A stretch of DNA of 63,589 nucleotides from Tubiluchus corallicola (Eukaryota; Animalia; Priapulida): assembly GCA_030141605.1 (NCBI GenBank), contig JAQGDQ010001092.1, positions 1 to 63,589 on the forward strand, given 5' to 3'. This document shows positions 30,034 through 62,373 of the stretch, piece after piece. The notes under the pieces were generated by a model. That model ran no database searches, was not told the DNA's origin, and saw only the letters and a list, made by a program, of their open reading frames with translations. The position numbers and the translations under genes are program-made. Each line of letters starts with the position of its first letter. Position 1 is the stretch's first letter.

Positions 30034-30180
30034 GTACGCAAGTATTTTCGATACGGTCGCCGCTCAGCATCGTACGAGGCGCAGAGAAAAACTAAGAAAT
30101 TAATCAAAATCGGATTTATCGTTGGAGTAATATGCTGGGTGTTGTACCTCATTATAGTCATACTAAGGTTTCTTTTATAA
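30034..30180 (+). CDS. CD225/Dispanin last coding exon (VRKYFRYGRRSASYEAQRKTKKLIKIGFIVGVICWVLYLIIVILRFLL*)
   Basis: Acceptor ttcatttcttag; basic loop followed by a C-terminal TM helix as in CD225 proteins; TAA at 30178-30180. Confidence 0.95.
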   Translation, partial: VRKYFRYGRRSASYEAQRKTKKLIKIGFIVGVICWVLYLIIVILRFLL

Positions 30181-30231: not shown

Positions 30232-31076
30232 GTCTATGGTTAAAATGATCACCAATTAATTCGGCCACCACCAGATGGCTCTAAATGTTACTTTCGCTAT
30301 CTAAATTCGCTATCTATCAGTGATGTCATAGACGTAGACGTTATTCATGGCTTGCAAAAACAGGCAGCAGATCAAACCTACTGCACAATTTTCATAAAAA
30401 GTGCCAACATTTTTGTTTAAAGCAAAGTAATGACATCACAAACTAACATAATTTTCAACAGCAAAAATATTCCATGAGCGTGTTTGTGAAAGACAAAATT
30501 GAAGTACAGTGCTACTCTAAGATATTCAGTGTATTGTACTAAAACTAGGCAAGTTTTAAGATAAAAATTCAAATTTCAAATTTACCACTGCACTCATGCA
30601 TGAGCTATCGAACGTGTGTAGTTCGTCACAAACTAATACATCTGAACTAAGAGGTACAGCACCTGTTTTTCTGTAATGCATTTCCGACATGCAGGCGCTG
30701 GTGCCCGTCTAACTAGCAAATGGCAAAATGCAATTACCAGTGAAGAACTAGTGATGCGAATGTGAAATTGCGTTTCTGTGGTAATAATTCCTTCTAGTAA
30801 GCCATTTTTGAAAAAAATAGCATGTTTCCTTTCAATATTTTAAAGAGTAGATTGTTTTGACCTGCAGTGTAAGATTGCGTCAGTTTTGCTTTAAACAAAA
30901 ATGTTGACACTTTTTGTAAAAATTGTGCAGTAGGTTTGACCTGCTGCCTGTTTTTGCAAGCCATGAATAACGTCTACATCTATGACATCACTGATATGTG
31001 AATTTAAATAGCGAAAATAACATTTAGCGCCATCTGGCGGTGGCCGAATTAATTGGTGGTCATTTTAACCATAGAC
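30232..31076. mobile_element. Foldback element (arms 30232-30416 and 30895-31076) with MITE family A (30421-30890) at its central TTAA
   Basis: About 185-bp inverted arms; TTAA at 30417-30420 and 30891-30894 flanks AGCAAA...TTTGCT. Confidence 0.9.
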
Positions 31077-33920: not shown

Positions 33921-35733
33921 CTGCAGTGTGTATGTCAATACAGATTGATCAAATGGAACTGTATAAAGAAATTTGAAAGAAAGAAAAAACAAAGAAAACT
34001 AAATCTATAGTAATGTTTGAGATAGAACATTTAATCTTTAACTACAGTATTTCTAAAACTTCTCTCCCCTACTCGTTAACAATCTAGTAAAGGTTAACAG
34101 CAGCTTCCAGTGTGATTTGTCCGGAAATGTCTAATTAATAATGAAATGTAGATGGCACTGCAATGACAAGTTAAAAACACATATAGCAAATGCTTCCACA
34201 GGCAACGTTGATAGATATCCGGCTAAGAAGCCAAGTTTCCTGTTCCAAAATGGATAAACACTTACTTAGTCTTTGAACAAGGTTGTAAATAATATTTTCA
34301 AATAATGCTGCTTCTATCTATACTCTTTCTTATTATAATTAGAAATTATTGCTCAAAACACTTTTAGCCGAAGCAATAGTATTAGGTATCACAGAATTAA
34401 TAACAGGTCGAACGATTCAACACAAAAAATGAAACATTAGCAAAATGGCATCACCATCAGTAACAAAAGTAAATTTCTCTGTTTACCTTATCAAAAGTGA
34501 ATAATTTAGATGAGATTTTAAAATATCAGCTGAAGACATTAGACTATAACAGTACTGTTGGTATTATAATCCTAGCAGCAGGATGTACGCCTTGACGTGC
34601 CACATTTTAGTCTGTAGGTACAACAGCAAGCTAATGATTATATAATAGTAAAATCTGCAGCAATAAAATTTATGCGATAATTAACAAGAAAAGGACGATT
34701 ATAAAAGAAATTTTGTCAAAATACTCTGTCCGTCAGAGCATGCACACGTACTGATGTCGCTTACAATCTCACCAACACGCGACGCTGTTTACAAAACATA
34801 AAGACCAGGTCTCTTATTTACAATCATATTTACACAGACTTGTGAAATTGAAAGTTCATGGGTTTGCGTGTCATCATGCTCACGGACAGAGTCAGACAAA
34901 ATAATGGACATAACGCTCATCATGGCTGGACTCAAGGTGGCTGCTATTATTTTGTGAAAAACAATTAATCACGAAAACGGTTATTCACCATAACAGTTAA
35001 TCGCGAAAACAGTTTTTCACCATAACAGTTAATCACGAAAACAGTTATTCACTATAACAGTTAATCATGATGGTTAATCACAAAAACCAAACATAGGTGG
35101 CAGCACCTGTACCATCTGAGCTCTACAGACGTCTAGGGCATGCACGCCACATATGCGAATGAACATACGGACGACTGTAACTACTCTAAAAATATGTCAA
35201 TCAAATCGTTGTTAGATCATAGCCATTGTCCATAGTCAATGCCCCCTAGCTAGTCAGACTTGCTTGGCTGGCATTCTTGTATACATTGCACCCAATGCAA
35301 ATATGGCTCCTCCAATGAAAACATCAAAGCCAGACAGAAAACCAAACCTAAAATTAAATACATTTTATTTGGTACAAAAAATTAAAACAATAATGTGAAT
35401 TGGGGGGATGATTCTCTATTAAAATTTGGCTTTAATTCTTATCAAATCTCAAAGAAGTTATTTATGTTTAGTTTCTTGACTTCGGTAAGAAGCAACGCTT
35501 GAAATTTGAGAAGCCAATTATTGTATCGATTTCACCTTCATACACCATGGAGTAACAACTCAGAACTTGTGTTTAAAGGTATAAGAAATTAAAATGATGC
35601 ATTACTATAATCCAAGGCTACATGACTTGTTAAAAGCGGCAAGTTTTGCAGTACAATAAAACATTTGCAGGAAGAGGAAGAAGTTCAAGGCACAATTGTA
35701 AGTTCGGGCATTTCTTTTAGTTGATGGGAAAAT

Positions 35734-35823: not shown

Positions 35824-36463
35824 CTCACCGTTTTTGGTTAAAGCTTTCTCTCATAATATGTTCATCTGCAGAAGTGCCTTTGTGGAGGATTGCTGGTGCG
35901 AACAATTTATACTGAAATTAGCAAACAGTTTTACCACTTTTGTCAGTTTAGAGGTAGATTTGCCAAGCAAATCTGCAAACTTACAAATAATTGTGGTTAT
36001 TAATATAGAGAAAACACTTTTCCTAACAAAATATTGAACGAAGAACAGAGCTGCATAAAATATTTTGCAAGAGCTAAGAATTCAAAACCAAAAGTGAAAA
36101 TAAACTCGAACATTTGTTTCCCCTAGCAAAATATAGACAGCTTGATATCTAATTAATTAAATGTGATCGGGACAGTTCGCGCAAATACTTCAAGACTGTC
36201 AATATCCACTGTTGTATTTTGGCTTAATTCATTTAGTTAATTAGTTATCACTCTTTGCTGGAATTGATAATGCTGATTTAGTGCATTCCACACACCTCCA
36301 ACAGGCTATAAGAACCAGGAGATAACTCAGTACAGTCAGTAGCTGGGGTAGCTTGAATGCCAGGCGTCTAATTTCGAGGCATTGATTGGTAAGTCAATTG
36401 ATGTTAATTTTGGCTTTTGTTATAGCTAGAAATTATTAGTATCAAAAAAGAGCAGCAGAAACA

Positions 36464-39400
36464 TTATAAGAAACTCACTGTGCTGACGAGACTATTGTCA
36501 CTTCCAAGACTGCCATTATGATAAGCAGTAAAAAGAAGCTCAGAGTTGCGTTTGTGAGCTGGATCATATCTCTGTTGCTTCAATGAGTTATGTCTGGTGT
36601 CGGCTTGCCTCTCAAGTGAGTCACGCCGCTCGTCGCGCCTGGTGTCGGCACGCCTCTCAAGTGAGTCTCGCCGCTCGTCGCGCCTGGTGTCGGCACGCCT
36701 CTCAAGGGAGTCACGCCGCTCGTCGCGCCTGGTGTCGGCACGCCTCTCAAGGGAGTCTCGCCGCTCGTCGCGCCTGGTGTCGGCACGCCTCTCAAGTGAG
36801 TCTCGCCGCTCGTCGCGCCTGGTTTCGGCACGCCTCTCAAGTGAGTCTCGCCGCTCGTCGCGCCTGGTGTCGGCACGCCTCTCAAGTGAGTCTCGCCGCT
36901 CGTCGCGCCTGGTGTCGGCACGCCTCTCAAGTGAGTCACGCCGCTCGTCGCGCCTGGTGTCGGCACGCCTCTCAAGGGAGTCTCGCCGCTCGTCGCGCCT
37001 GGTGTCGGCACGCCTCTCAAGGGAGTCTCGCCGCTCGTCGCGCCTGGTGTCGGCACGCCTCTCAAGGGAGTCACGCCGCTCGTCGCGCTTGGTGTCGGCA
37101 CGCCTCTCAAGGGAGTCACGCCGCTCGTCGCGCCTGGTGTCGGCACGCCTCTCAAGGGAGTCTCGCCGCTCGTCGCACCTGGTGTCGGCACGCCTCTCAA
37201 GGGAGTCTCGCCGCTCGTCGCGCCTTGTGTCGGCACGCCTCTCAAGTGAGTCTCGCCGCTCGTCGCGCCTAGTGTCGGTACGCCTCTCAAGGGAGTCACA
37301 CCGCTCGTCGCGCCTGGTGTCGGCACGCCTCTCAAGGGAGTCTCGCCGCTCGTCGCGCCTGGTGTCGGCACGCCTCTCAAGGGAGTCTCGCCGCTCGTCG
37401 CGCCTGGTGTCGGCACGCCTCTCAAGGGAGTCTCGCCGCTCGTCGCGCGTGGTGTCGGCACGCCTCTCAAGTGAGTCTCGCCGCTCGTCGCGCCTGGTGT
37501 CGGCACGCCTCTCAAGGGAGTCACGCCGCTCGTCGCGCCTGGTGTCGGCACGCCTCTCAAGGGAGTCACGCCGCTCGTCGCGCCTGGTGTCGGCACGCCT
37601 CTCAAGGGAGTCACGCCGCTCGTCGCGCCTGGTGTCGGCACGCCTCTCAAGGGAGTCTCGCCGCTCGTCGCGCCTGGTGTCGGCACGCCTCTCAAGGGAG
37701 TCTCGCCGCTCGTCGCGCCTGGTGTCGGCACGCCTCTCAAGGGAGTCTCGCCGCTCGTCGCGCCTGGTGTCGGCACGCCTCTCAAGGGAGTCTCGCCGCT
37801 CGTCGCGCCTGGTGTCGGCACGCCTCTCAAGTGAGTCTCGCCGCTCGTCGCGCCTGGTGTCGGCACGCCTCTCAAGTGAGTCTCGCCGCTCGTCGCGCCT
37901 GGTGTCAGCACGCCTCTCAAGGGAGTCACGCCGCTCGTCGCGCCTGGTGTCGGCACGCCTCTCAAGGGAGTCACGCCGCTCGTCGCGCCTGGTGTCGGCA
38001 CGCCTTTCAAGTGAGTCTCGCGCTCGTCGCGCCTGGTGTCGGCACGCCTCTCAAGTGAGTCTCGCCGCTCGTCGCTGGTGTGGGTTCAAGGAGTCCGCCG
38101 TCGTCGCGCCTGGTGTCGGCACGCCTCTCAAGGAGTCCGCCGCTCGTCGCGCCTGGTGTCGGCACGCCTCTCAAGTGAGTCCGCCGCTCGTCGCGCCTGG
38201 TGTCGGCACGCCTCTCAAGGGAGTCTCGCCGCTCGTCGCGCCTGGTGTCGGCACGCCTCTCAAGTGAGTCTCGCCGCTCGTCGCGCCTGGTGTCGGCACG
38301 CCTCTCAAGGGAGTCACGCCGCTCGTCGCGCCTGGTGTCGGCACGCCTCTCAAGGGAGTCGCCGCTCGTCGCGCCTGGTGTCGGCACGCCTCTCAAGGAG
38401 TCTCGCCGCTCGTCGCGCCTGGTGTCGGCACGCCTCTCAAGGGAGTCTCGCCGCTCGTCGCGCCTGGTGTCGGCACGCCTCTCAAGGGAGTCTCGCCGCT
38501 CGTCGCGCCTGGTGTCGGCACGCCTCTCAAGGGAGTCACGCCGCTCGTCGCGCCTGGTGTCGGCACGCCTCTCAAGGGAGTCTCGCCGCTCGTCGCGCCT
38601 GGTGTCGGCACGCCTCTCAAGGGAGTCTCGCCGCTCGTCGCGCCTTGTGTCGGCACGCCTCTCAAGTGAGTCTCGCCGCTCGTCGCGCCTGGTGTCGGTA
38701 CGCCTCTCAAGGGAGTCACGCCGCTCGTCGCGCCTGGTGTCGGCACGCCTCTCAAGGGAGTCTCGCCGCTCGTCGCGCCTGGTGTCGGCACGCCTCTCAA
38801 GGGAGTCTCGCCGCTCGTCGCGCCTGGTGTCGGCACGCCTCTCAAGGGAGTCTCGCCGCTCGTCGCGCCTGGTGTCGGCACGCCTCTCAAGTGAGTCTCG
38901 CCGCTCGTCGCGCCTGGTGTCGGCACGCCTCTCAAGGGAGTCACGCCGCTCGTCGCGCCTGGTGTCGGCACGCCTCTCAAGGGAGTCACGCCGCTCGTCG
39001 CGCCTGGTGTCGGCACGCCTCTCAAGGGAGTCTCGCCGCTCGTCGCGCCTGGTGTCGGCACGCCTCTCAAGGGAGTCTCGCCGCTCGTCGCGCCTGGTGT
39101 CGGCACGCCTCTCAAGGGAGTCTCGCCGCTCGTCGCGCCTGGTGTTGGCACGCCTCTCAAGTGAGTCTCGCCGCTCGTCGCGCCTGGTGTCGGCACGCCT
39201 CTCAAGTGAGTCTCGCCGCTCGTCGCGCCTGGTGTCGGCACGCCTCTCAAGTGAGTCTCGCCGCTCGTCGCGCCTGGTGTCAGCACGCCTCTCAAGGGAG
39301 TCACGCCGCTCGTCGCGCCTGGTGTCGGCATGCCTCTCAAGGGAGTCACGCCGCTCGTCGCGCCTGGTGTCGGCACGCCTTTCAAGTGAGTCTCGCCGCT

Positions 39401-40838
39401 CGTCGCGCCTGGTGTCGGCACGCCTCTCAAGTGAGTCTCGCCGCTCGTCGCGCCTGGTGTCGGCACGCCTCTCAAGTGAGTCTCGCCGCTCGTCGCGCCT
39501 GGTGTCGGCACGCCTCTCAAGGGAGTCACGCCGCTCGTCGCGCCTGGTGTCGGCACGCCTCTCAAGGGAGTCACGCCGCTCGTCGCGCCTGGTGTCGGCA
39601 CGCCTCTCAAGGGAGTCTCGCCGCTCGTCGCGCCTGGTGTCGGCACGCCTCTCAAGGGAGTCTCGCCGCTCGTCGCGCCTGGTGTCGGCACGCCTCTCAA
39701 GGGAGTCACGCCGCTCGTCGCGCCTGGTGTCGGCACGCCTCTCAAGGGAGTCTCGCCGCTCGTCGCGCCTGGTGTCGGCACGCCTCTCAAGGGAGTCTCG
39801 CCGCTCGTCGCGCCTGGTGTCGGCACGCCTCTCAAGGGAGTCTCGCCGCTCGTCGCGCCTGGTGTCGGCACGCCTCTCAAGGGAGTCTCGCCGCTCGTCG
39901 CGCCTGGTGTCGGCACGCCTCTCAAGTGAGTCTCGCCGCTCGTCGCGCCTGGTGTCGGCACGCCTCTCAAGTGAGTCTCGCCGCTCGTCGCGCCTGGTGT
40001 CGGCACGCCTCTCAAGGGAGTCTCGCCGCTCGTCGCGCCTGGTGTCGGCACGCCTCTCAAGGGAGTCTCGCCGCTCGTCGCGCCTGGTGTCGGCACGCCT
40101 CTCAAGGGAGTCTCGCCGCTCGTCGCGCCTGGTGTCGGCACGCCTCTCAAGGGAGTCTCGCCGCTCGTCGCGCCTGGTGTCGGCACGCCTCTCAAGTGAG
40201 TCTCGCCGCTCGTCGCGCCTGGTGTCGGCACGCCTCTCAAGGGAGTCTCGCCGCTCGTCGCGCCTGGTGTCGGCACGCCTCTCAAGGGAGTCACGCCGCT
40301 CGTCGCGCCTGGTGTCGGCACGCCTCTCAAGGGAGTCTCGCCGCTCGTCGCGCCTGGTGTCGGCACGCCTCTCAAGGGAGTCTCGCCGCTCGTCGCGCCT
40401 GGTGTCGGCACGCCTCTCAAGGGAGTCTCGCCGCTCGTCGCGCCTGGTGTCGGCACGCCTCTCAAGGGAGTCTCGCCGCTCGTCGCGCCTGGTGTCGGCA
40501 CGCCTCTCAAGGGAGTCTCGCCGCTCGTCGCGCCTGGTGTCGGCACGCCTCTCAAGGGAGTCACGCTGCTCGTCGCGCCTGGTGTCGGCACGCCTCTCAA
40601 GGGAGTCTCGCCGTTCTTGAAAAGAAGAAACTTTCATATTTTCATCATAGTAATGTTCCATTATGCTTTCTGCCTTGGAATTAGTGGAATAAAAGTCGGG
40701 ACTTATTGAAAACTTTTCTTTCATGACATCTTTTTCAAAAGTTAAGGTACGCCTTTGCTGCACTGCATCACCTTGCACAGTTCTGGCTAGAAAGAAGCTC
40801 AAAAATGCCAGGGTGAATAATTTTAGTGTTGCTGTCAT
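36464..40838 (-). CDS. Secreted Arg/Asp/Glu-rich tandem-repeat protein: signal peptide + about 50-aa unique segment + about 89x ERRDSLERRADTRRD + short unique C-terminus; indels at about 38020-38400
   Basis: Acceptor tttcatttttctgttacag directly before AAG ATG; MTATLKLFTLAFLSFFLARTVQG has signal-peptide layout; the unique sequence runs in frame into and out of the array (…RQADTRHNSLKQQRYDPAHKRNSELLFTAYHNGSLGSDNSLVSTVSFL*); common variants (CGA/CGT, TCC/TCA) are synonymous in this frame. Confidence 0.82.
36597..40615. repeat. 45-bp GC-rich coding tandem array (about 89 units)
   Basis: Unit ggtgtcggcacgcctctcaag(g/t)gagtc(t/a)cgccgctcgtcgcgcct. Confidence 0.98.
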
Positions 40839-40959
40839 CTTCTGTAACAGAAAAATGAAATTTCTCACAACTAAAATCACCAAATATTAACAGTTGTGAG
40901 AGAAATTAGAGAATGATGACAATAATATGACGATTATGATGATGTGACTATGACTATGT

Positions 40960-41074
40960 CATCATCATCATCATCGTTATCATCATCACTATCATCATCA
41001 TCATCATCATCATCATTATCATCACCATAATCACCATCATCGTCATCACCATCATCACCGTCACCCTCACCACC

Positions 41075-41105
<31 letters not shown>

Positions 41106-41257
41106 CCACCACCATCATCATCGTTATCATCATCACTAACATCACCATCATCGTCATCACCATCATCACCGTCACCATCACCATCATCATCATCATCATC
41201 ACCATCGTTATCATCATCACTATAATCACCATCATCATCATCATCATCACCATCATC
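40960..41257. repeat. (CAT/CAC)n trinucleotide tract in intron 1 of the repeat-protein gene
   Basis: Direct reading; source of the poly-D/poly-M ORFs. Confidence 0.95.
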
Positions 41258-41595
41258 CCACAAGCTTATGTGTTGAACACTGGTCAATGGCATGTGTGTT
41301 TTTATCATCATAGCGTCCACTCTGTCCTTCGGGAAAGGTCAAATGTGACTCGTGGAATTTGAAGGCCAATCAATTTTGTCGAAAAAATGGGTGCCAGAGT
41401 TTTGAGGTCACAGGTTCGATTCAAGATCGTTGGCTGTGTGAGATGCAGGAGGATCTCAATACACCAACTTGTCGTTTATTTACTTAAGAAACTTGGTAAT
41501 GCTCCATATGTAAACTTTTATCACATATATTGTCAATATATTTCATCAAGATAATTGCACACATAATTGATTACTAATAGCAACATTTCTTACAG

Positions 41596-42074
41596 AAACC
41601 TAGCCACTGGGGGGGGGGGGGGAACAAGCCAGCCCAACTCAGTGCCGGTCCCAAGCCCGGATAAATAGGGAGGGTTAGGGTCAGGAAGGGCATCTGCCTG
41701 TAAAAACTGCGCCAAAACCTTCTATGAGTGAGTCGGTGAGTGCAAAGAGGTGGTCAGACCCGCTCTAATCTATAGGCTGGAAGCAGCTTCTCTAAAGAAG
41801 ACCAAAGAGAAGGAAATGGGTATGAGGATGTTGAGATGGATGGTGGGAATAACAAGAAGAGATAAAATTAGAAATAATAATATCAGAGGAACGGTAAAAG
41901 TAGTGGAAGCCTCGCAAGATTACGATGGTAGGGACATCTGAAAAGAAGAGTCGGCGAAGATCATGTGGGAAGGGAAGACATAAATGAAGAGATGGTCAAC
42001 AATAGGAATGCGTGGAGAAGACTCATTCACAACGGCGACCCCGCATAGGGAAAAGCTGGGAAGAAGAAGAAGAG
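41596..42074 (+). mobile_element. Internally deleted (bipartite) RTE-clade retroposon
   Basis: RTE-type 5' motif gccggtcccaagcccggataaa; ORF C-terminal remnant VRPALIY...MRMLRWMVGITRRDKIRN; (GAA)n tail; 16-bp TSD gcaacatt(t/a)cttacag at 41580-41595 and 42075-42090. Confidence 0.88.
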
Positions 42075-44612
42075 GCAACATTACTTACAGGGTGGTTGAC
42101 TTTGATAACTTTTACTGCTTCGCCAATCAGTTTAATATCATACCTGAGATAAATTAATCATAATAATAATTTTGTTACATTGTATCATATTATCGTTTCA
42201 CACACTGTGTTTTTCTTTCTGTAGAAAGGTGATAAATAAACACATTTACACTTATACTAATACTTACACTTACACTTGTGCTTATGCTTATCTGTACTAA
42301 CATTTGTACGCTTGTGACCCCCCCACCCCCACCCCACCCCCGCCTCCCAAATAAATCTACGTGCCACGTTTCATTTTACTATTTGTTTGAGCGCAAGAAT
42401 ACATGCAAAGAAGTAATGTAGCACACGAAGAGCATAAGAGTATAGCAAAATTGTCCATAAGTAGGTAGTTAAACTTTTCTAGTTCACAAATCTTGAATTT
42501 CCATTTCATGAGGATCATTTAGGTACCAAGCTCATTGCTCTATGTTATTTCCAAGCTGAGATAATCCACGTTGAAGTTGAGGTGCAGGCTGCACACTGAA
42601 AAACAGAATCTTGAGAAAATCACTGTTAAAGTCAGCCATTGTTTTTTGTCGCGTTTCTACAAAACACTTAGCGACCGCACAAATGTTGGTTGCTACGGAC
42701 TTTGCAAGATCAAATTGTAGTTACGTTTACATCCAGTAGATGGCTCTTCCTGACAAAGACCTGGGCTTGCAGAAACCCGAAGCAAAATAACAGCTTCCGC
42801 GAGCTGCTTGGAGTTTGAAAGTAGGAGTTCTTTTGCAATTGCAGGGTAGGGGTTAAAAAATTAGATTTTTAGCATTCGTTTAGCGCTTTTTTGATAATTT
42901 GTAGCCAAAATATAAAAGTCCAATATATTTAGCATAAAAAACAAAAAATTGAAATTTGACCAACTTTTTGGTGCATTCTACTTTGAAGAATCATAGCGTA
43001 GTTTTAACTATGTCGACTTATGGACGGTTTTGCTTTGCAAGCAAGCAATTCTCTTGGAAGGAATCTTTATTCAATATGAGTAAATTATCGTTCTTAGGAG
43101 GGAAATTTAAACATAACTTTCAGTCTGTGTCATATCTGGAAAATGTACAAGCAGAAGTGCCGAAAAAACAAAATAATGAAAATACGAATAAAGTCATATA
43201 TATAAACATACATACGAATATTTACAAAAAAACGTGTACATGGAAATTAAGCAGACGTGATAAAATGAATAACAATAAAAATTGAATACTGTGATAAAAC
43301 AAATTAAAGATATCCCATGTGTGATCACGTTAAAACGTTCAGTACTCCTAACGTAATACTGTCAGTTATCTTCAAAATTAAGATGCACATTAAAATATTA
43401 TTTTATTTTATTATTTTGCTCATTGATTAACAGTTATGATTAAGTTTCGCTAATTTTTTTGAATCATATTTCTGAAAGTCATTTTTGAAGTTGTTGTTCA
43501 GTCACTTTGTTATGATTGAGCTTAGACGCAGGGAAGTATGGATAGGAACCAAAAATCAACAATAAATATTTGCACTGCACACAACAGAAAAGTGTTTATT
43601 AAACTACAGAAAACATGAGTAGCAAAACTGCTGCACTGAACATTGAGCAAAAACTAGAAAGCAAAAAACAGTCGGTAAAACCTGTTTCACAGCCAGTATA
43701 CAGGTATAGAACTTGACCTATGCAGAGTTGCACAGGCTTCACAACAACCATTAATTTTAGATAGGGAGAGGACCAGTGTATATGTAGTCACTGGACCATA
43801 CAATTATACTGAAGGTAAGTCAGCTGGTAGAATGTAACAAGATTAGCACATAGATGGCAGCACCTAACTACAATCTACAATACCAACTTCCACATCATTG
43901 TCTATTTAGTTCCATACTCATATTTCATTGCATATTTTGTTTACTCCATTTCCATTTCTCTATATTAGTTCTTTTGTTCGACAGTGGTTTCCGAATTATG
44001 CTTAACTGATATAAGTTGATTGAAACTATTGCATATTTTTTCGTTTCAGTATAATAGGCTTCATTTTATAATGCATACTTTGTTTCCTTTACTGATTTTT
44101 TTATTTATGCTTTATTTTCTTCTCTTGCTTTGACTTGATTTTCTAGTTTCTTTATGCACTAATCAGTTTTGTTAAATGCTTCACATATTTGGCTGGTCGT
44201 CATTCATATTTTTCATTTTATCATAATGCTTCCTTATTGCATAATCCTTTTAAAGTTAAATTTCTTAAGCTATAATTTTACATTAAAAGTTGATGTAGGA
44301 GTTTCGCCAAGTATCTAGTTGGTCACGTGACCACGGTCATACACCTGTGCAGATCTGTTTCTACCTGGGCAAGTGAGTTAGTTGGTAGACGTTAACAGGC
44401 TTCTTTAAAAGTAGTTTTTCACAGTATGATAGTGACATAATTTGTCTGATATATTGGTAAATACTAGATTTGCTTTATGGAGACATACGACGTAAGTAAA
44501 TACGTCATTTTATATTATTTTGAATAATCATGAACTGATCACTTTGAACATTTTAATTTAATGAATAACAATCTTATCAGTTTGATAGAACATCGTATAA
44601 ATTAGTAAATTA

Positions 44613-45916
<1,304 letters not shown>

Positions 45917-46239
45917 GTTCTGCTGAATAATATGTAGAAAAACTATAATGTTACTATAATTGTATTGCTGTTATTGTCTAAAAGATATTGACCAATCCAG
46001 ACAACGATTCAGAGAAGTAATTGAAGTGTTAAGATAAGAAATTCAACAAATTTTTAATGTTAGAAAAGTCTAAACTTAAACGATGAATTATATTTTAACT
46101 TCTTCAGAAAATAAACAATTAAAACAAACAAATAAGAGAAGTAATTTTTGAAATGGCTTATTTTTTGAGCCACCCATTATCTTTTCAGTTAAAAAGTTTT
46201 ACATGCTTTCCTAATTCATGAATAAAAAAGCACGGTCAC

Positions 46240-46578
46240 GTTTGTAAGGTTTGTGTGAGTCCCGTGAGTAAGGTTTGCGTGAGTCACGTGAGTAAGGTCA
46301 GCGCGAGTCACGTGAGTAAGGTCTGCATGAGTCACGTGAGTAAGGCCTGCGTGAGTCACGTGAGTAAGGTATGCGCGAGTCACGTGAGTAAGGTCTGCGT
46401 GAGTCACGTGAGTAAGGTATGCGTGAGTCGCGTGAGTAAAGTCTGCGTGAGTCACGTGAGTAAAGTCTGCGTGAGTCACATGAGTAAAGTCTGCGTGAGT
46501 CACGTGAGTAAGGTGTGCATGAGTCGCGTGAGTAAAGTCTGCGTGAGTCATGTGAGTAAAGTCTGCGTGAGTCACGTG
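46240..46578. repeat. 24-bp minisatellite (about 14 copies) with TGAGTCA and CACGTG motifs
   Basis: Unit gtgagtcacgtgagtaa(a/g)gtctgc. Confidence 0.95.
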
Positions 46579-47333
46579 CTATTGAAACAGATCGAACATG
46601 CAACTTGCGTGTAGTTACAGTTAAAATTACGAATTTGTGAAATTTAATTTTAAAATCAATGCCACTAAAATTAAGAAACTTTGAAATTGTGCAAAAGATT
46701 GTCTTAAAGTTATCGCTGAGTAATTCATAAAACTTAAAATAAAATTTCAACTTAAAAAAAGGAATCAACGAAGCATGAAAATCCAATTTCAAAGTGGCTC
46801 CTCATTTGAGATAAAGGATCGCTGTTTGAGGCCCTTTATTTGAGGTAAGGGCCCCTCTTTGAATCCCTTTATTTGAAATATGCAAATGGTGCTAAAATAT
46901 TTCACAAGAAAAAAAAATATTCGAGACGAGTGCAAGCAAATTAGAGAGTGCTTCTGAATGAAAGGGGTCCCATAATTACATTAGCCTGAGGTCCCAAAAG
47001 GTCATAATCTGGCCCTGATTACCCCTCATTAAACAATCTGCATGATTGGTGTTAATTTCTTTTCATCAAAAGTACAAATCTTTAGTACCAAATCACTCAA
47101 TATGAGTAAACACTTACTCAGCTTACTTTAAAATTACTCAATCTGTTTAAATTACTACAACGCGTTTGGTTAGTTATCAGCTGTTTTCAAAACTAAATTT
47201 TACCGAAAGAAAGAAAACACAAATAAGCTAGGATTCGAACCTCGGACTCTTGCATTACAACAGTGAGTGAGTTAACTCTTCAGTGCGTAGATTACTTCAC
47301 AGAAATATTTCTTTGCCACAGTAAAATTCTTAC

Positions 47334-47563
47334 CTCAGGTACTAGAATGTCAACGTGTTAAAGGATAGTGTCTTTGGCGCCGCCTGTTGACGGTCGTGTG
47401 CAACTTCAACTTCTTGGATGACTTTGATCCTTGGCTCGTAATTGTCCGATGTATAGGAGCCGATAGGTTCGGTCTTGGTTGCCTTGCAAAGAAATCTTTT
47501 GGAAATGATCTTGAGTTCGTTCTTGAAAATGTTAGAGTCCGGTTTAGCAGCAGAAGTTGCAAT
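47334..47563 (-). other. Non-coding first exon (5'UTR) of the repeat-protein gene
   Basis: Starts 31 nt downstream of TATAAA; 230 nt with no ATG; ends at the consensus donor GAG|GTAAGA (47333). Confidence 0.68.
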
Positions 47564-47626
47564 GTTCCAACATTTGCCCGGCGTCCGGTTTATAACTGGA
47601 GGGGGCGGATCTGACGCATGCGCAGT
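47560..47626 (-). promoter_or_regulatory. Pol II core promoter: TATAAA (47594-47589), Inr-like CATT (about 47563), GC box and NRF1-type CGCATGCGCA
   Basis: Canonical TATA-to-start spacing; GGGGCGG at about 47602-47608; tgacgcatgcgca at 47612-47624. Confidence 0.65.
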
Positions 47627-51539: not shown

Positions 51540-51900
51540 TTGTCCAATAGGGGGAACCATCGATCATTAAAAGGTGGGAATTTGGGGGAAGTGGTTTGTT
51601 TCTAGAGCGAAAATGACACATTTAGTTTTATCTGTATTAAGAGAAAGTTTTATTAGCTTTGAGCCAATTAGATAGGTTACCCAAGGCAGTATTCATATTA
51701 TTTACAGAAAAATTGTCAAAGTCTAAGAAGATGGTCGTCTGCAAATTGTTATTTTCATGTTGCGTTGGATGTTGTGGGTGTCGTTGATGTATACTAAAAA
51801 TAAGAGGGGTCCTAGGATTGACCCTTGTGGTACTCCACAAATTGCTATTGCCTGGTCAGAGAGGGAGTTATTGCACTTGAACAGTACTTGATCTTTGACT
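51540..51900 (-). mobile_element. Degenerate LINE RT fragment
   Basis: CGVPQGSILGPLLFLVYIND, followed by a frameshifted FADD-like region and NWLKANK. Confidence 0.85.
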
Positions 51901-52237
51901 CTGCCCATGTGCATTTTTCCTTAATTGTAACTTTTCCTCTTTCCTTTTCCCTGTTCTTCCTATTTCCCCTTTTGATTAAAATACTCAATAAAGCTTCTCA
52001 ACAAAAATAATATAAAATGATAAAAAATATTGTAATGTCTTGCTTAAAGGCGTAGGCTATGAGCAGGTTTTCTTGTTAAAATCAGAAAAAATTCATATGG
52101 GCTGTAATCTATGATGTACTACAGAATATGATGTACTTTTTGAAGCCCTCTTCTACTATCATCATTTTTGTCGTCGTCATTATCATCATTGATGTGATTA
52201 CCAGTAACTTTGTAATCACAATAAATATTGCAATAGT

Positions 52238-58051: not shown

Positions 58052-58970
58052 AGTTTAAACATAATTTATTTAGGATTGGATCAGACAGTTTGTACAACAT
58101 GATTTAAGATCCTCACCACAACAGACTTTATACACTATTTACAAGAACATTTACAGTAAGAATAGACTATACTTAGTTTTTAGTATACTTCAGTATACTA
58201 AAGTTTTACTACAGTGATACATTAGACATTAGTAAAAAATGACGGTTAGTAAATATTAATGTACGATTATTTAAGACTGATGCATTTGATATCAGATAGA
58301 AACTACTGGAAGCGTTTAGTACATAATATAAAGTCATGTATACATTGGAATATTTTACAGTCAGCAACATAGTTAAATTCGTCTTTACCGAATAATAACA
58401 ACTTCAACAGATCATTATTTTCTAAAACAGCTATATTAAGGTTTTTGGGCAGAAGTATTGCATTTAATTTATCAAACATAACTACCCTAGCTAGTTGATG
58501 CAATGGGCAGTGCAACAAAAAGTGTTCAACAGACTCAAATCGAAATCCACAGTTACAATTCGGCAATATTGGATGACCGTTTTTATCTTTATAGCCTTTA
58601 GAGAAAAAGTCACAGTTTAGCTGAGAAAATCCGATTCTCATGCGCGTATGATGCACTGACATTGGAGGTTTACCAAATGAAAAATGTTTCTTACGCAACG
58701 AAATACTTAAATGTGATTTGAGCTCTTGTTTGAATTGTGATATGGATGTAATTTCACCAATGTTCTGTGGTAAGTTGTTCCACATGTTAATGGTCGATAT
58801 GAAAAACGATTTTTCACAGCTAACAGAACGGCAACTAAAATTTCTGTATTTAGTACCACTGCGCATATAATAGGGTGTAACTTAGTTTACCTATGGCGGC
58901 AGAATTGCACTTAAATAGTGGGGCACTAAGTCATTGATTATTTTGAAAAAAAGACATAGGCGATGATATC
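58052..58970 (-). mobile_element. LINE 3' portion (CR1/L2-group-like ORF2 C-terminus and 3'UTR)
   Basis: ORF 58303-58866: SFFISTINMWNNLP...CNCGFRFESVEHFLLHCP; 3'UTR shared with the copies at 1670-2305. Confidence 0.88.
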
Positions 58971-62271: not shown

Positions 62272-62373
62272 CAGGTGGACCAGGCGGACCAGGAAGACCT
62301 CGTGGACCAGAGGGACCCTCAGTACCAGGTGAACCACTGGGACCAGCAGGTCCACTAGGACAGATAAGACATT
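62272..62373 (-). CDS. Collagen exon ([35 protein letters not shown])
   Basis: Nine uninterrupted Gly-X-Y triplets after CxxCP; acceptor tttttatttttctag; donor G|GTGAGT; 102 bp, phase 1-1. Confidence 0.9.

What the first reader, a model, noticed from the sequence alone, without database searches (positions are those of the whole stretch)
36464..47626. Complete gene for a secreted polyampholyte made of about 89 copies of ERRDSLERRADTRRD
Seen: a TATA/Inr promoter, an ATG-free 230-nt first exon, a 6.5-kb intron, then an ATG 3 nt into exon 2. That ATG opens a hydrophobic signal peptide, about 50 unique residues and about 4 kb of a 45-bp repeat. Each 15-mer has 6 Arg, 3 Asp and 2 Glu (11/15 charged, net +1) in alternating RR / acidic blocks. 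Established knowledge: S-x-E (here S-L-E) is the Fam20C Golgi-kinase consensus, RR pairs are prohormone-convertase sites, and R-D-E-R is a minimal furin RxxR site. Inference: one phosphate per unit would switch the net charge. That suits a coacervating, adhesive, mineral-binding or granule-matrix protein. Alternatively it is a polyprotein cut into tiny acidic peptides (DSLE, ADT, DE) with bulk Arg release. I do not recognise it as a named family, and repeat-masking would hide it from annotation pipelines.
Basis: partly seen in the sequence, partly recalled or inferred. Interest (0 to 1): 0.9.

Follow-up and report, generated by a model that had tools for sequence, protein, structure and literature searches.

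The report
Orphan secreted arginine-acid repeat protein
An animal gene with no known relatives encodes a predicted export signal followed by about 90 copies of a 15-residue unit that is three-quarters arginine and acidic residues, likely a self-condensing secreted matrix material, but the deposited sequence is frameshifted mid-array (probably an assembly error) and neither splicing nor function is shown.

Summary
The array is real: 90 units at 40616-36590 (minus strand). 74 of 83 full-length units read ERRDSLERRADTRRD, and 50 of 60 codon changes are silent in that frame. A signal-peptide-like start and an in-frame tail holding a decayed unit flank it. TATA box, ATG-free leader, splice sites and a poly(A) signal are where expected, but no spliced read was seen.

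'Complete gene' is wrong as deposited. Six short units clustered at 38411-37982 shift the frame, so the ORF stops at 943 aa and never reaches the unique tail. The cluster sits at the join of a ~31-unit block duplication and looks like long-read error (inferred, not tested). True copy number may be ~60-90.

No homologue was found in any library searched. The unit also occurs in a second sample (run X5, RNA only by guess).

Best reading (0.5): an uncleaved secreted Arg-only mixed-charge protein that condenses in granules or as extracellular matrix, tuned by Fam20C phosphorylation. Rivals: RR-cut polyprotein, helical rod, soluble hydration coat, dead allele. Verdict: new variant of a known kind, function untested.

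The parts
47589..47594 (-). TATAAA box of the predicted promoter (a GC box and a TGCGCATGCG palindrome lie just upstream, 47600-47622)
   Evidence: sequence; function inferred
47334..47563 (-). predicted non-coding exon 1 (start site inferred about 30 nt below TATA); ATG-free; ends at donor GAG|GTAAGA
   Evidence: no RNA support
40842..47333 (-). predicted intron 1, 6,492 nt, with (CAA)n, (TCA)n and a 24-bp minisatellite
40770..40838 (-). predicted signal peptide, 23 aa, likely cut after VQG
   Evidence: rule-based; SignalP not run
40617..40769 (-). unique 51-aa spacer with one RR site; could alternatively be a 156-nt in-frame intron (40771-40616)
   Evidence: sequence matched by contigs of X1 and X2 (same sample)
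38412..40616 (-). repeat units 1-49, all 45 bp, in frame with the ATG
37982..38411 (-). units 50-59: six deletion-bearing units (net -20 nt) that break the frame, at the join of a ~31-unit block duplication
36590..37981 (-). repeat units 60-90, in frame with the unique tail
36464..36589 (-). unique 41-aa tail starting with a decayed unit, then TAA; donor-like site at 36478 leaves the true C-terminus open
   Evidence: sequence matched by contigs of X1 and X2
35364..35369 (-). AATAAA followed by a GT/T-rich stretch: candidate poly(A) signal, 3' UTR about 1.1 kb
   Evidence: inferred

Best explanation
The locus is a predicted two-exon animal gene whose product would be a secreted, largely uncleaved chain of up to about 1,460 residues made of Arg/Asp/Glu 15-mers, which likely condenses through arginine-acid contacts into a granule or extracellular matrix (glue, coat or mineral-precursor phase), with predicted Fam20C phosphorylation of each S-L-E tuning the charge. 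Shown: array, coding bias, in-frame flanks, composition, motifs. Inferred: splicing, secretion, that the mid-array frameshifts are assembly errors, phosphorylation (net +1 to about -1 per unit, adding a Ca2+ site), condensation, and the tissue role.
For: Coding: 50 of 60 codon changes among 83 full units are silent, 52 of 61 base changes are at third positions, and only 38 of 83 units equal the DNA consensus while 74 equal the protein consensus. Two control arrays of period 33 and 24 show no comparable bias in their open frames (7 of 25 and 2 of 25; 12 of 22, 6 of 22 and 4 of 22 silent). Both unique flanks are open in that same frame and the tail begins with a decayed unit. Secretion. Chemistry: basic residues are Arg only, written with five different codons. 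Charges two residues apart are 8 attractive and 0 repulsive per unit (P 0.005 at that lag, 0.023 over any lag, 0.045 given RR pairs), the complementarity of an extended chain. Analogues: RD repeats condense length-dependently from about 40 dipeptides, at 5 uM, without crowder, and R-to-K abolishes it (10.1101/771592, passages). Pif80, with 17 DDRK-type motifs, binds aragonite as a random coil and forms Ca2+ coacervates (PMC4971512, PMC5540247, passages). Fam20C S-x-E specificity and its expression in tubeworm cement cells (PMC12650399, PMC12621633, passages). A contig of run X5 (other sample and study) covers the unit head-to-tail with 1 other letter and no gap.
Against: The ORF is broken as deposited. 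Silent-site counts are not independent: by distinct change types only 7 of 16 are silent (P 0.17) and 4 of 5 recurrent types (P 0.03, uncorrected for six frames). Units 55-57 share the same deletion, which real spread of a mutation could also give. kappa about 0.005 (approximate) predicts a swollen soluble chain on charge patterning alone (general polyampholyte theory, recalled). Pif80 coacervates dissolve at high salt, a problem for a purely ionic material in seawater. The unit has three RR pairs that convertases could cut. There is no Tyr, Cys, His or known domain for cross-linking or anchoring in the array. AlphaFold predicts one long helix. Tissue and organism group are unknown.
Confidence: 0.5

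Rival explanations
1. A polyprotein or granin-like precursor: convertases would cut the RR pairs in secretory granules, releasing tiny acidic peptides (DSLE, ADT, DE) and free arginine, or dissolving a granule matrix on cue.
For: Signal peptide plus about 270 RR sites if all units are read, one RR in the spacer and a KR in the tail; dibasic sites are the general processing signal (PMC9070308, abstract in listing only); minimal R-x-x-R once per unit.
Against: No Gly-basic amidation signal and no R-x-K/R-R site in the unit. Products of 2-4 residues match no peptide I could find. Lys would serve cleavage as well, yet appears in only 1 of 83 units. No Pfam family matched.
Confidence: 0.2
2. A long helical rod (single alpha-helix or 15-residue-period coiled coil, about 200 nm) acting as a spacer or fibre.
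For: Single-sequence AlphaFold2 gives a continuous helix with pLDDT 97-99 over the repeats; 10 of 15 residues are helix-favouring; a 15-residue period is a known coiled-coil period (recalled).
Against: A non-coding (AG)n microsatellite frame from the same window also folds as one helix at pLDDT 96, so the result is unspecific. i,i+4 pairs are 2 attractive and 6 repulsive, against 8 and 0 for an E4R4 helix. Only one Leu and one Ala per unit could form a core.
Confidence: 0.1
3. A soluble, highly hydrated zwitterionic polymer: mucus-like lubricant, anti-fouling coat, release agent or ion buffer that never condenses.
For: 73% charged, net charge per residue +0.07, kappa about 0.005, lower than 98% of unit shuffles.
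Against: Arg-based mixed-charge chains condense where Lys-based ones stay soluble (10.1101/771592), and this unit uses Arg only.
Confidence: 0.1
4. A dead or truncated allele, or a non-coding minisatellite with chance flanks: the deletions are real and no full-length product is made.
For: Six frameshifting units in the deposited sequence, three sharing one deletion; four other frames of the consensus unit are also stop-free; no homologue found.
Against: All six are deletions, most in short homopolymer or dinucleotide runs, packed into 10 consecutive units of 89 (P 1.5e-5 if random). Unit 57 is garbled at several separate places while the other 83 units have no indel. Promoter, splice, signal and tail features line up in one frame. 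Summed contig depth over one unit is at most about 430 times (X1) or 150 times (X2) the flank with overlaps counted repeatedly: a crude bound, not a copy number, but not thousands of copies.
Confidence: 0.1

Closest known systems
Arginine-enriched mixed-charge domains (RD/RE repeats; U1-70K, CPSF6, NELF-E, SPA-5 domains; 10.1101/771592)
   Same: Long low-complexity runs of interleaved Arg and Asp/Glu, Arg not Lys, near-neutral charge, Ser as a possible phospho-tuner.
   Different: Those examined there are intracellular; this one has a predicted signal peptide, is about ten times longer than RD50-RD60, and is a strict 15-mer with RR pairs. No sequence homology.
Pif80 of pearl-oyster nacre (PMC4971512, PMC5540247)
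   Same: Matrix protein with repeated paired acidic/basic motifs (DDRK), disordered, Ca2+-coacervating.
   Different: Pif has a conserved chitin-binding Pif97 part and 17 scattered motifs, is acidic and uses Lys; here there is no domain, 90 tandem units, Arg only, net positive until phosphorylated.
Fam20C-phosphorylated cement proteins of sabellariid tubeworms (Pc-3/Sa-3; PMC12621633)
   Same: Secreted repeat proteins stored in granules by coacervation, charge set by Golgi phosphorylation.
   Different: They use separate polyanion and polycation chains plus DOPA; here both charges sit on one chain, with one Ser per unit and no Tyr in the array.
Multi-copy neuropeptide precursors and granins (general knowledge, recalled)
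   Same: Signal peptide, many dibasic sites, acidic spacers.
   Different: No amidation signal, no recognisable peptide, RR only, fragments of 2-4 residues, no Pfam match.
FbsA of Streptococcus agalactiae (PMC3782484; PF08017 surfaced only through a weak Atlas lead)
   Same: Leader peptide plus a variable number of tandem charged units containing LERR.
   Different: Bacterial, wall-anchored by LPKTG, a different unit; no Pfam match at E 0.01. Architectural likeness only.

Membership tests
Arg-enriched mixed-charge domain | interleaved Arg and Asp/Glu, Arg rather than Lys, length above about 40 pairs | tested here: met
   criteria
Arg-enriched mixed-charge domain | self-condensation lost on R-to-K | not testable with these tools
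   needs recombinant protein
Arg-enriched mixed-charge domain | intracellular (nuclear speckle) protein | tested here: not met
   predicted signal peptide; so it works like one but is not a member of the speckle class
Pif/Pif80 | conserved chitin-binding Pif97 region | tested here: not met
   no Pfam family in the N-terminus, array or tail
Pif/Pif80 | DDRK-type motifs | tested here: not met
   the unit has RRD/RRDE, no DD and no K; only the paired-charge pattern is shared
Neuropeptide/prohormone precursor | signal peptide and dibasic-flanked repeated peptides | tested here: met
Neuropeptide/prohormone precursor | amidation Gly or a recognisable conserved peptide | tested here: not met
Neuropeptide/prohormone precursor | processing in neuroendocrine cells | not testable with these tools
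   needs expression data and peptidomics
Single alpha-helix domain | net favourable i,i+4 and i,i+3 salt bridges | tested here: not met
   score -3 against a shuffle mean of +1.4; the AlphaFold helix is unspecific
Fam20C substrate | S-x-E in a secretory-pathway protein | tested here: met
   one per unit; consensus from PMC12650399
Fam20C substrate | actual phosphorylation (site is flanked by Arg) | not testable with these tools
   needs phosphoproteomics or an in vitro kinase assay
FbsA / PF08017 | profile match and LPxTG anchor | tested here: not met
   tail sequence

The most novel reading that the evidence does not exclude
A natural, secreted, ~170-kDa Arg-only mixed-charge polymer: the condensate chemistry of nuclear-speckle domains redeployed outside the cell as a one-component coacervate, switched from net positive to net negative by one Golgi phosphate per 15 residues and dissolved on demand at its RR sites.
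Probability: 0.2. Interest if true: 0.75.

Novelty: new variant of a known kind. Interest (0 to 1): 0.45.

Why it matters
Secreted low-complexity repeat proteins build the glues, shells and granule matrices of invertebrates and are easily lost to repeat masking and assembly error; this one has no entry in any library searched. If it condenses, it is a single-chain, genetically encoded, phospho-switchable polyampholyte: a clean test of whether arginine mixed-charge cohesion works in the secretory pathway or in seawater, and a ready design for a biomaterial. If it is cut at RR, it would be an extreme polyprotein. As it stands it is an orphan gene with an untested function and a flawed assembly.

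Tried and rejected
No whole genome is held, so genome-wide occurrence and paralogues could not be searched; there is no paralogue in the window. Homology searches, all blank: N-terminus against 141-2000-aa proteins, 0 of 30 candidates; N-terminus plus array against 275-875-aa proteins, 0 of 35 (repeat-only relatives above 875 aa were not covered there); phmmer of 115 aa against 1.84 billion representatives, 0 at E 0.001; Pfam, 0 families for the target pieces; PDB sequences 0; Foldseek PDB 0; Rfam 0; metagenome DNA pattern 0 and related loci 0 of 326 candidates; Atlas no usable hit and only leads at 0.82-0.83, a level shuffles reach a third of the time; earlier findings none by sequence, place or first word set. 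Papers: 0 for the unit or four 8-residue pieces of it, 0 for Arg-Arg-Asp matrix protein, 1 unrelated for secreted polyampholyte; subscription journals and supplements were not covered. Sequencing runs: no RNA holder listed. X5 gave no cover on the unique flanks and X4 only a 63-nt piece under 90% alike, which proves nothing. No joints were seen and only contigs were available, so splicing is untested. The indel patch itself could not be examined with reads. A search with a neighbouring exon to place the organism group found nothing. Rejected: exon 1 as a coding exon (stops in the phase-0 frame); the other open frames of the unit as the real one (4-31 of 61 changes silent and no link to a start); the AlphaFold helix as evidence (control). 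One change labelled 'stop' is a script artefact (it is Arg to Cys in context; corrected).
Full report
Observation. The window is repeat-rich animal DNA (about 35% GC, many microsatellites) with a CD225/dispanin exon and a collagen exon nearby. The 45-bp array at 36594-40613 has 89.8 copies at 96% identity. On the minus strand it splits into 90 units, 83 of them 45 bp, and the unit occurs nowhere else in the window (88 matches, 0 expected). An ATG at 40838 opens 74 codons that run in frame into unit 1. The first 23 look like a signal peptide, and 0 of 852 background ATGs match both features (a crude rule, not SignalP). The acceptor 3 nt upstream ranks 6 of 3771 and the donor after 47334 ranks 37 of 3820. 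TATAAA lies at 47594, the leader has no ATG, and AATAAA with a GT-rich follower lies at 35369. Contigs of runs X1 and X2, one sample and possibly the window's source, match both unique flanks.

Units 50, 51, 55, 56, 57 and 59 are short by 1, 2, 1, 2, 13 and 1 nt, so the deposited frame stops at 943 aa and never reaches the unique tail. All six are deletions, they fall within 10 consecutive units (P 1.5e-5), and unit 57 is damaged at several places. Four rare markers pair units 28/59, 30/61, 43/75 and 44/76, so the patch sits at the join of a 31-32-unit block duplication. I infer uncorrected long-read error, possibly with a mis-join that inflates copy number, but I could not test it, and the deletion shared by units 55-57 is also compatible with a real mutation. 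Two other points of the gene model are open: the 51-aa spacer coincides with an in-frame 156-nt GT..AG segment, and a donor-like site lies 14 nt before the stop, with a strong acceptor at 36122.

Is it coding? 74 of 83 full units give the same peptide while only 38 share the same DNA; 50 of 60 codon changes are silent and 52 of 61 base changes are at third positions. Events in an array are not independent: by distinct types it is 7 of 16 (P 0.17) and 4 of 5 recurrent types (P 0.03, uncorrected). Control arrays of period 33 and 24 show no such bias. The stronger argument is convergence: the silent-biased frame is also the frame of the signal peptide at one end and of a 41-aa tail at the other, and the tail starts with a decayed unit. 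A 75-nt contig of run X5, from another sample and study, covers the unit head-to-tail with one other letter and no gap at depth 217.8, in a run with only 13.2 million contig letters. The run is RNA only by guess, so this shows the unit in a second sample and at most hints at expression. Summed depth over one unit is at most about 430 (X1) or 150 (X2) times the flank; the tool warns this is no copy number, and no genome was available, so a genome-wide satellite is unlikely but not excluded.

Relatives. None in any search; the Atlas leads at 0.82-0.83 are at chance level. The unit is not in the searchable literature. Eight earlier findings listed by words are prokaryotic or phage; YjdP is a loose analogue only.

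Chemistry. Per unit: six Arg, five acids, one S-x-E, three RR, one minimal R-x-x-R, no amidation Gly, no full furin site; charged fraction 0.73, net +1, kappa about 0.005. Charges two apart are 8 attractive and 0 repulsive; four apart they are 2 and 6 (P 0.005-0.045 depending on the null, lag chosen after looking). This fits an extended, self-complementary chain better than a charged helix. AlphaFold's confident helix is discounted because a microsatellite frame gives the same.

Mechanism. I commit, at 0.5, to an uncleaved secreted Arg-rich mixed-charge protein that condenses into a granule or extracellular matrix, with Fam20C moving each unit from +1 to about -1 and adding Ca2+ sites. The basis is analogy. 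RD repeats condense from about 40 pairs and need Arg (10.1101/771592, passages). Pif80's paired-charge motifs bind aragonite and form Ca2+ coacervates, which high salt dissolves (PMC4971512, PMC5540247, passages). Fam20C reads S-x-E and is expressed in tubeworm cement cells (PMC12650399, PMC12621633, passages). FbsA was read in passages only for its architecture (PMC3782484), and PMC9070308 was seen as a listing abstract. No supplements were read. Every functional step is inferred. Rivals are an RR-cut polyprotein (0.2), a helical rod (0.1), a soluble hydration coat (0.1) and a dead allele or non-coding array (0.1); the first can coexist with the best reading.

Verdict. A probably real orphan gene of a known broad kind (secreted low-complexity repeat protein) with an unusual Arg-only polyampholyte unit. 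It is a member of no family tested, it is not intact as deposited, and it has no direct evidence of splicing or function. Interest 0.45.

Noticed in passing
window 23411-23740, 28954-29070, 30034-30180 (+): Exons of a CD225/dispanin-like gene (Pro-rich exon with PPPPY; PF04505 E 5.7e-9 on the middle exon; hydrophobic last exon), convergent with the repeat gene.
   Followed up: partly
window 62272-62373 (-): Isolated collagen exon (CxxC then Gly-X-Y; PF01391 E 1.3e-5, below the curated cut-off) with no further coding-like Gly-X-Y exon downstream in the window; the repeat gene may lie after, or inside an intron of, this gene.
   Followed up: partly
window 8917-10602 (-); fragments near 51726-51920 and 58306-58881: LINE-type reverse transcriptase remnant (PF00078 E 1.7e-17) in several frames, its 5' end replaced by an (AG)n microsatellite.
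   Followed up: no
window 35829-36122 (-): Stretch bounded by a strong acceptor (36122) and a strong donor (35828); if joined from the donor at 36478 it would add a 40-residue Phe-rich end. Unverified alternative 3' exon.
   Followed up: partly
window 46235-46578: 24-bp minisatellite in intron 1 whose minus frame reads RDSRRxYS; no silent-site bias in that frame (6 of 22), so likely coincidence.
   Followed up: yes
window 36590-40616 (-): Each unit also holds a perfect PKA-type R-R-x-S site on the same Ser and a CK2-type T-x-x-D; relevant only if the protein were cytosolic. The array is 70% GC with little CpG decay; flank CpG o/e is about 1.0.
   Followed up: partly
window 36532-36552 (-): The tail has a KR site followed by residues resembling the first few of pigment-dispersing hormone (recalled, not from a call); the rest does not match and Pfam finds nothing.
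   Followed up: partly
window about 2950-4100, 11855-12436, 30340-30960: Copies of one dispersed non-coding element (similar translated frames; the third copy seen by eye), probably a non-autonomous transposon.
   Followed up: no
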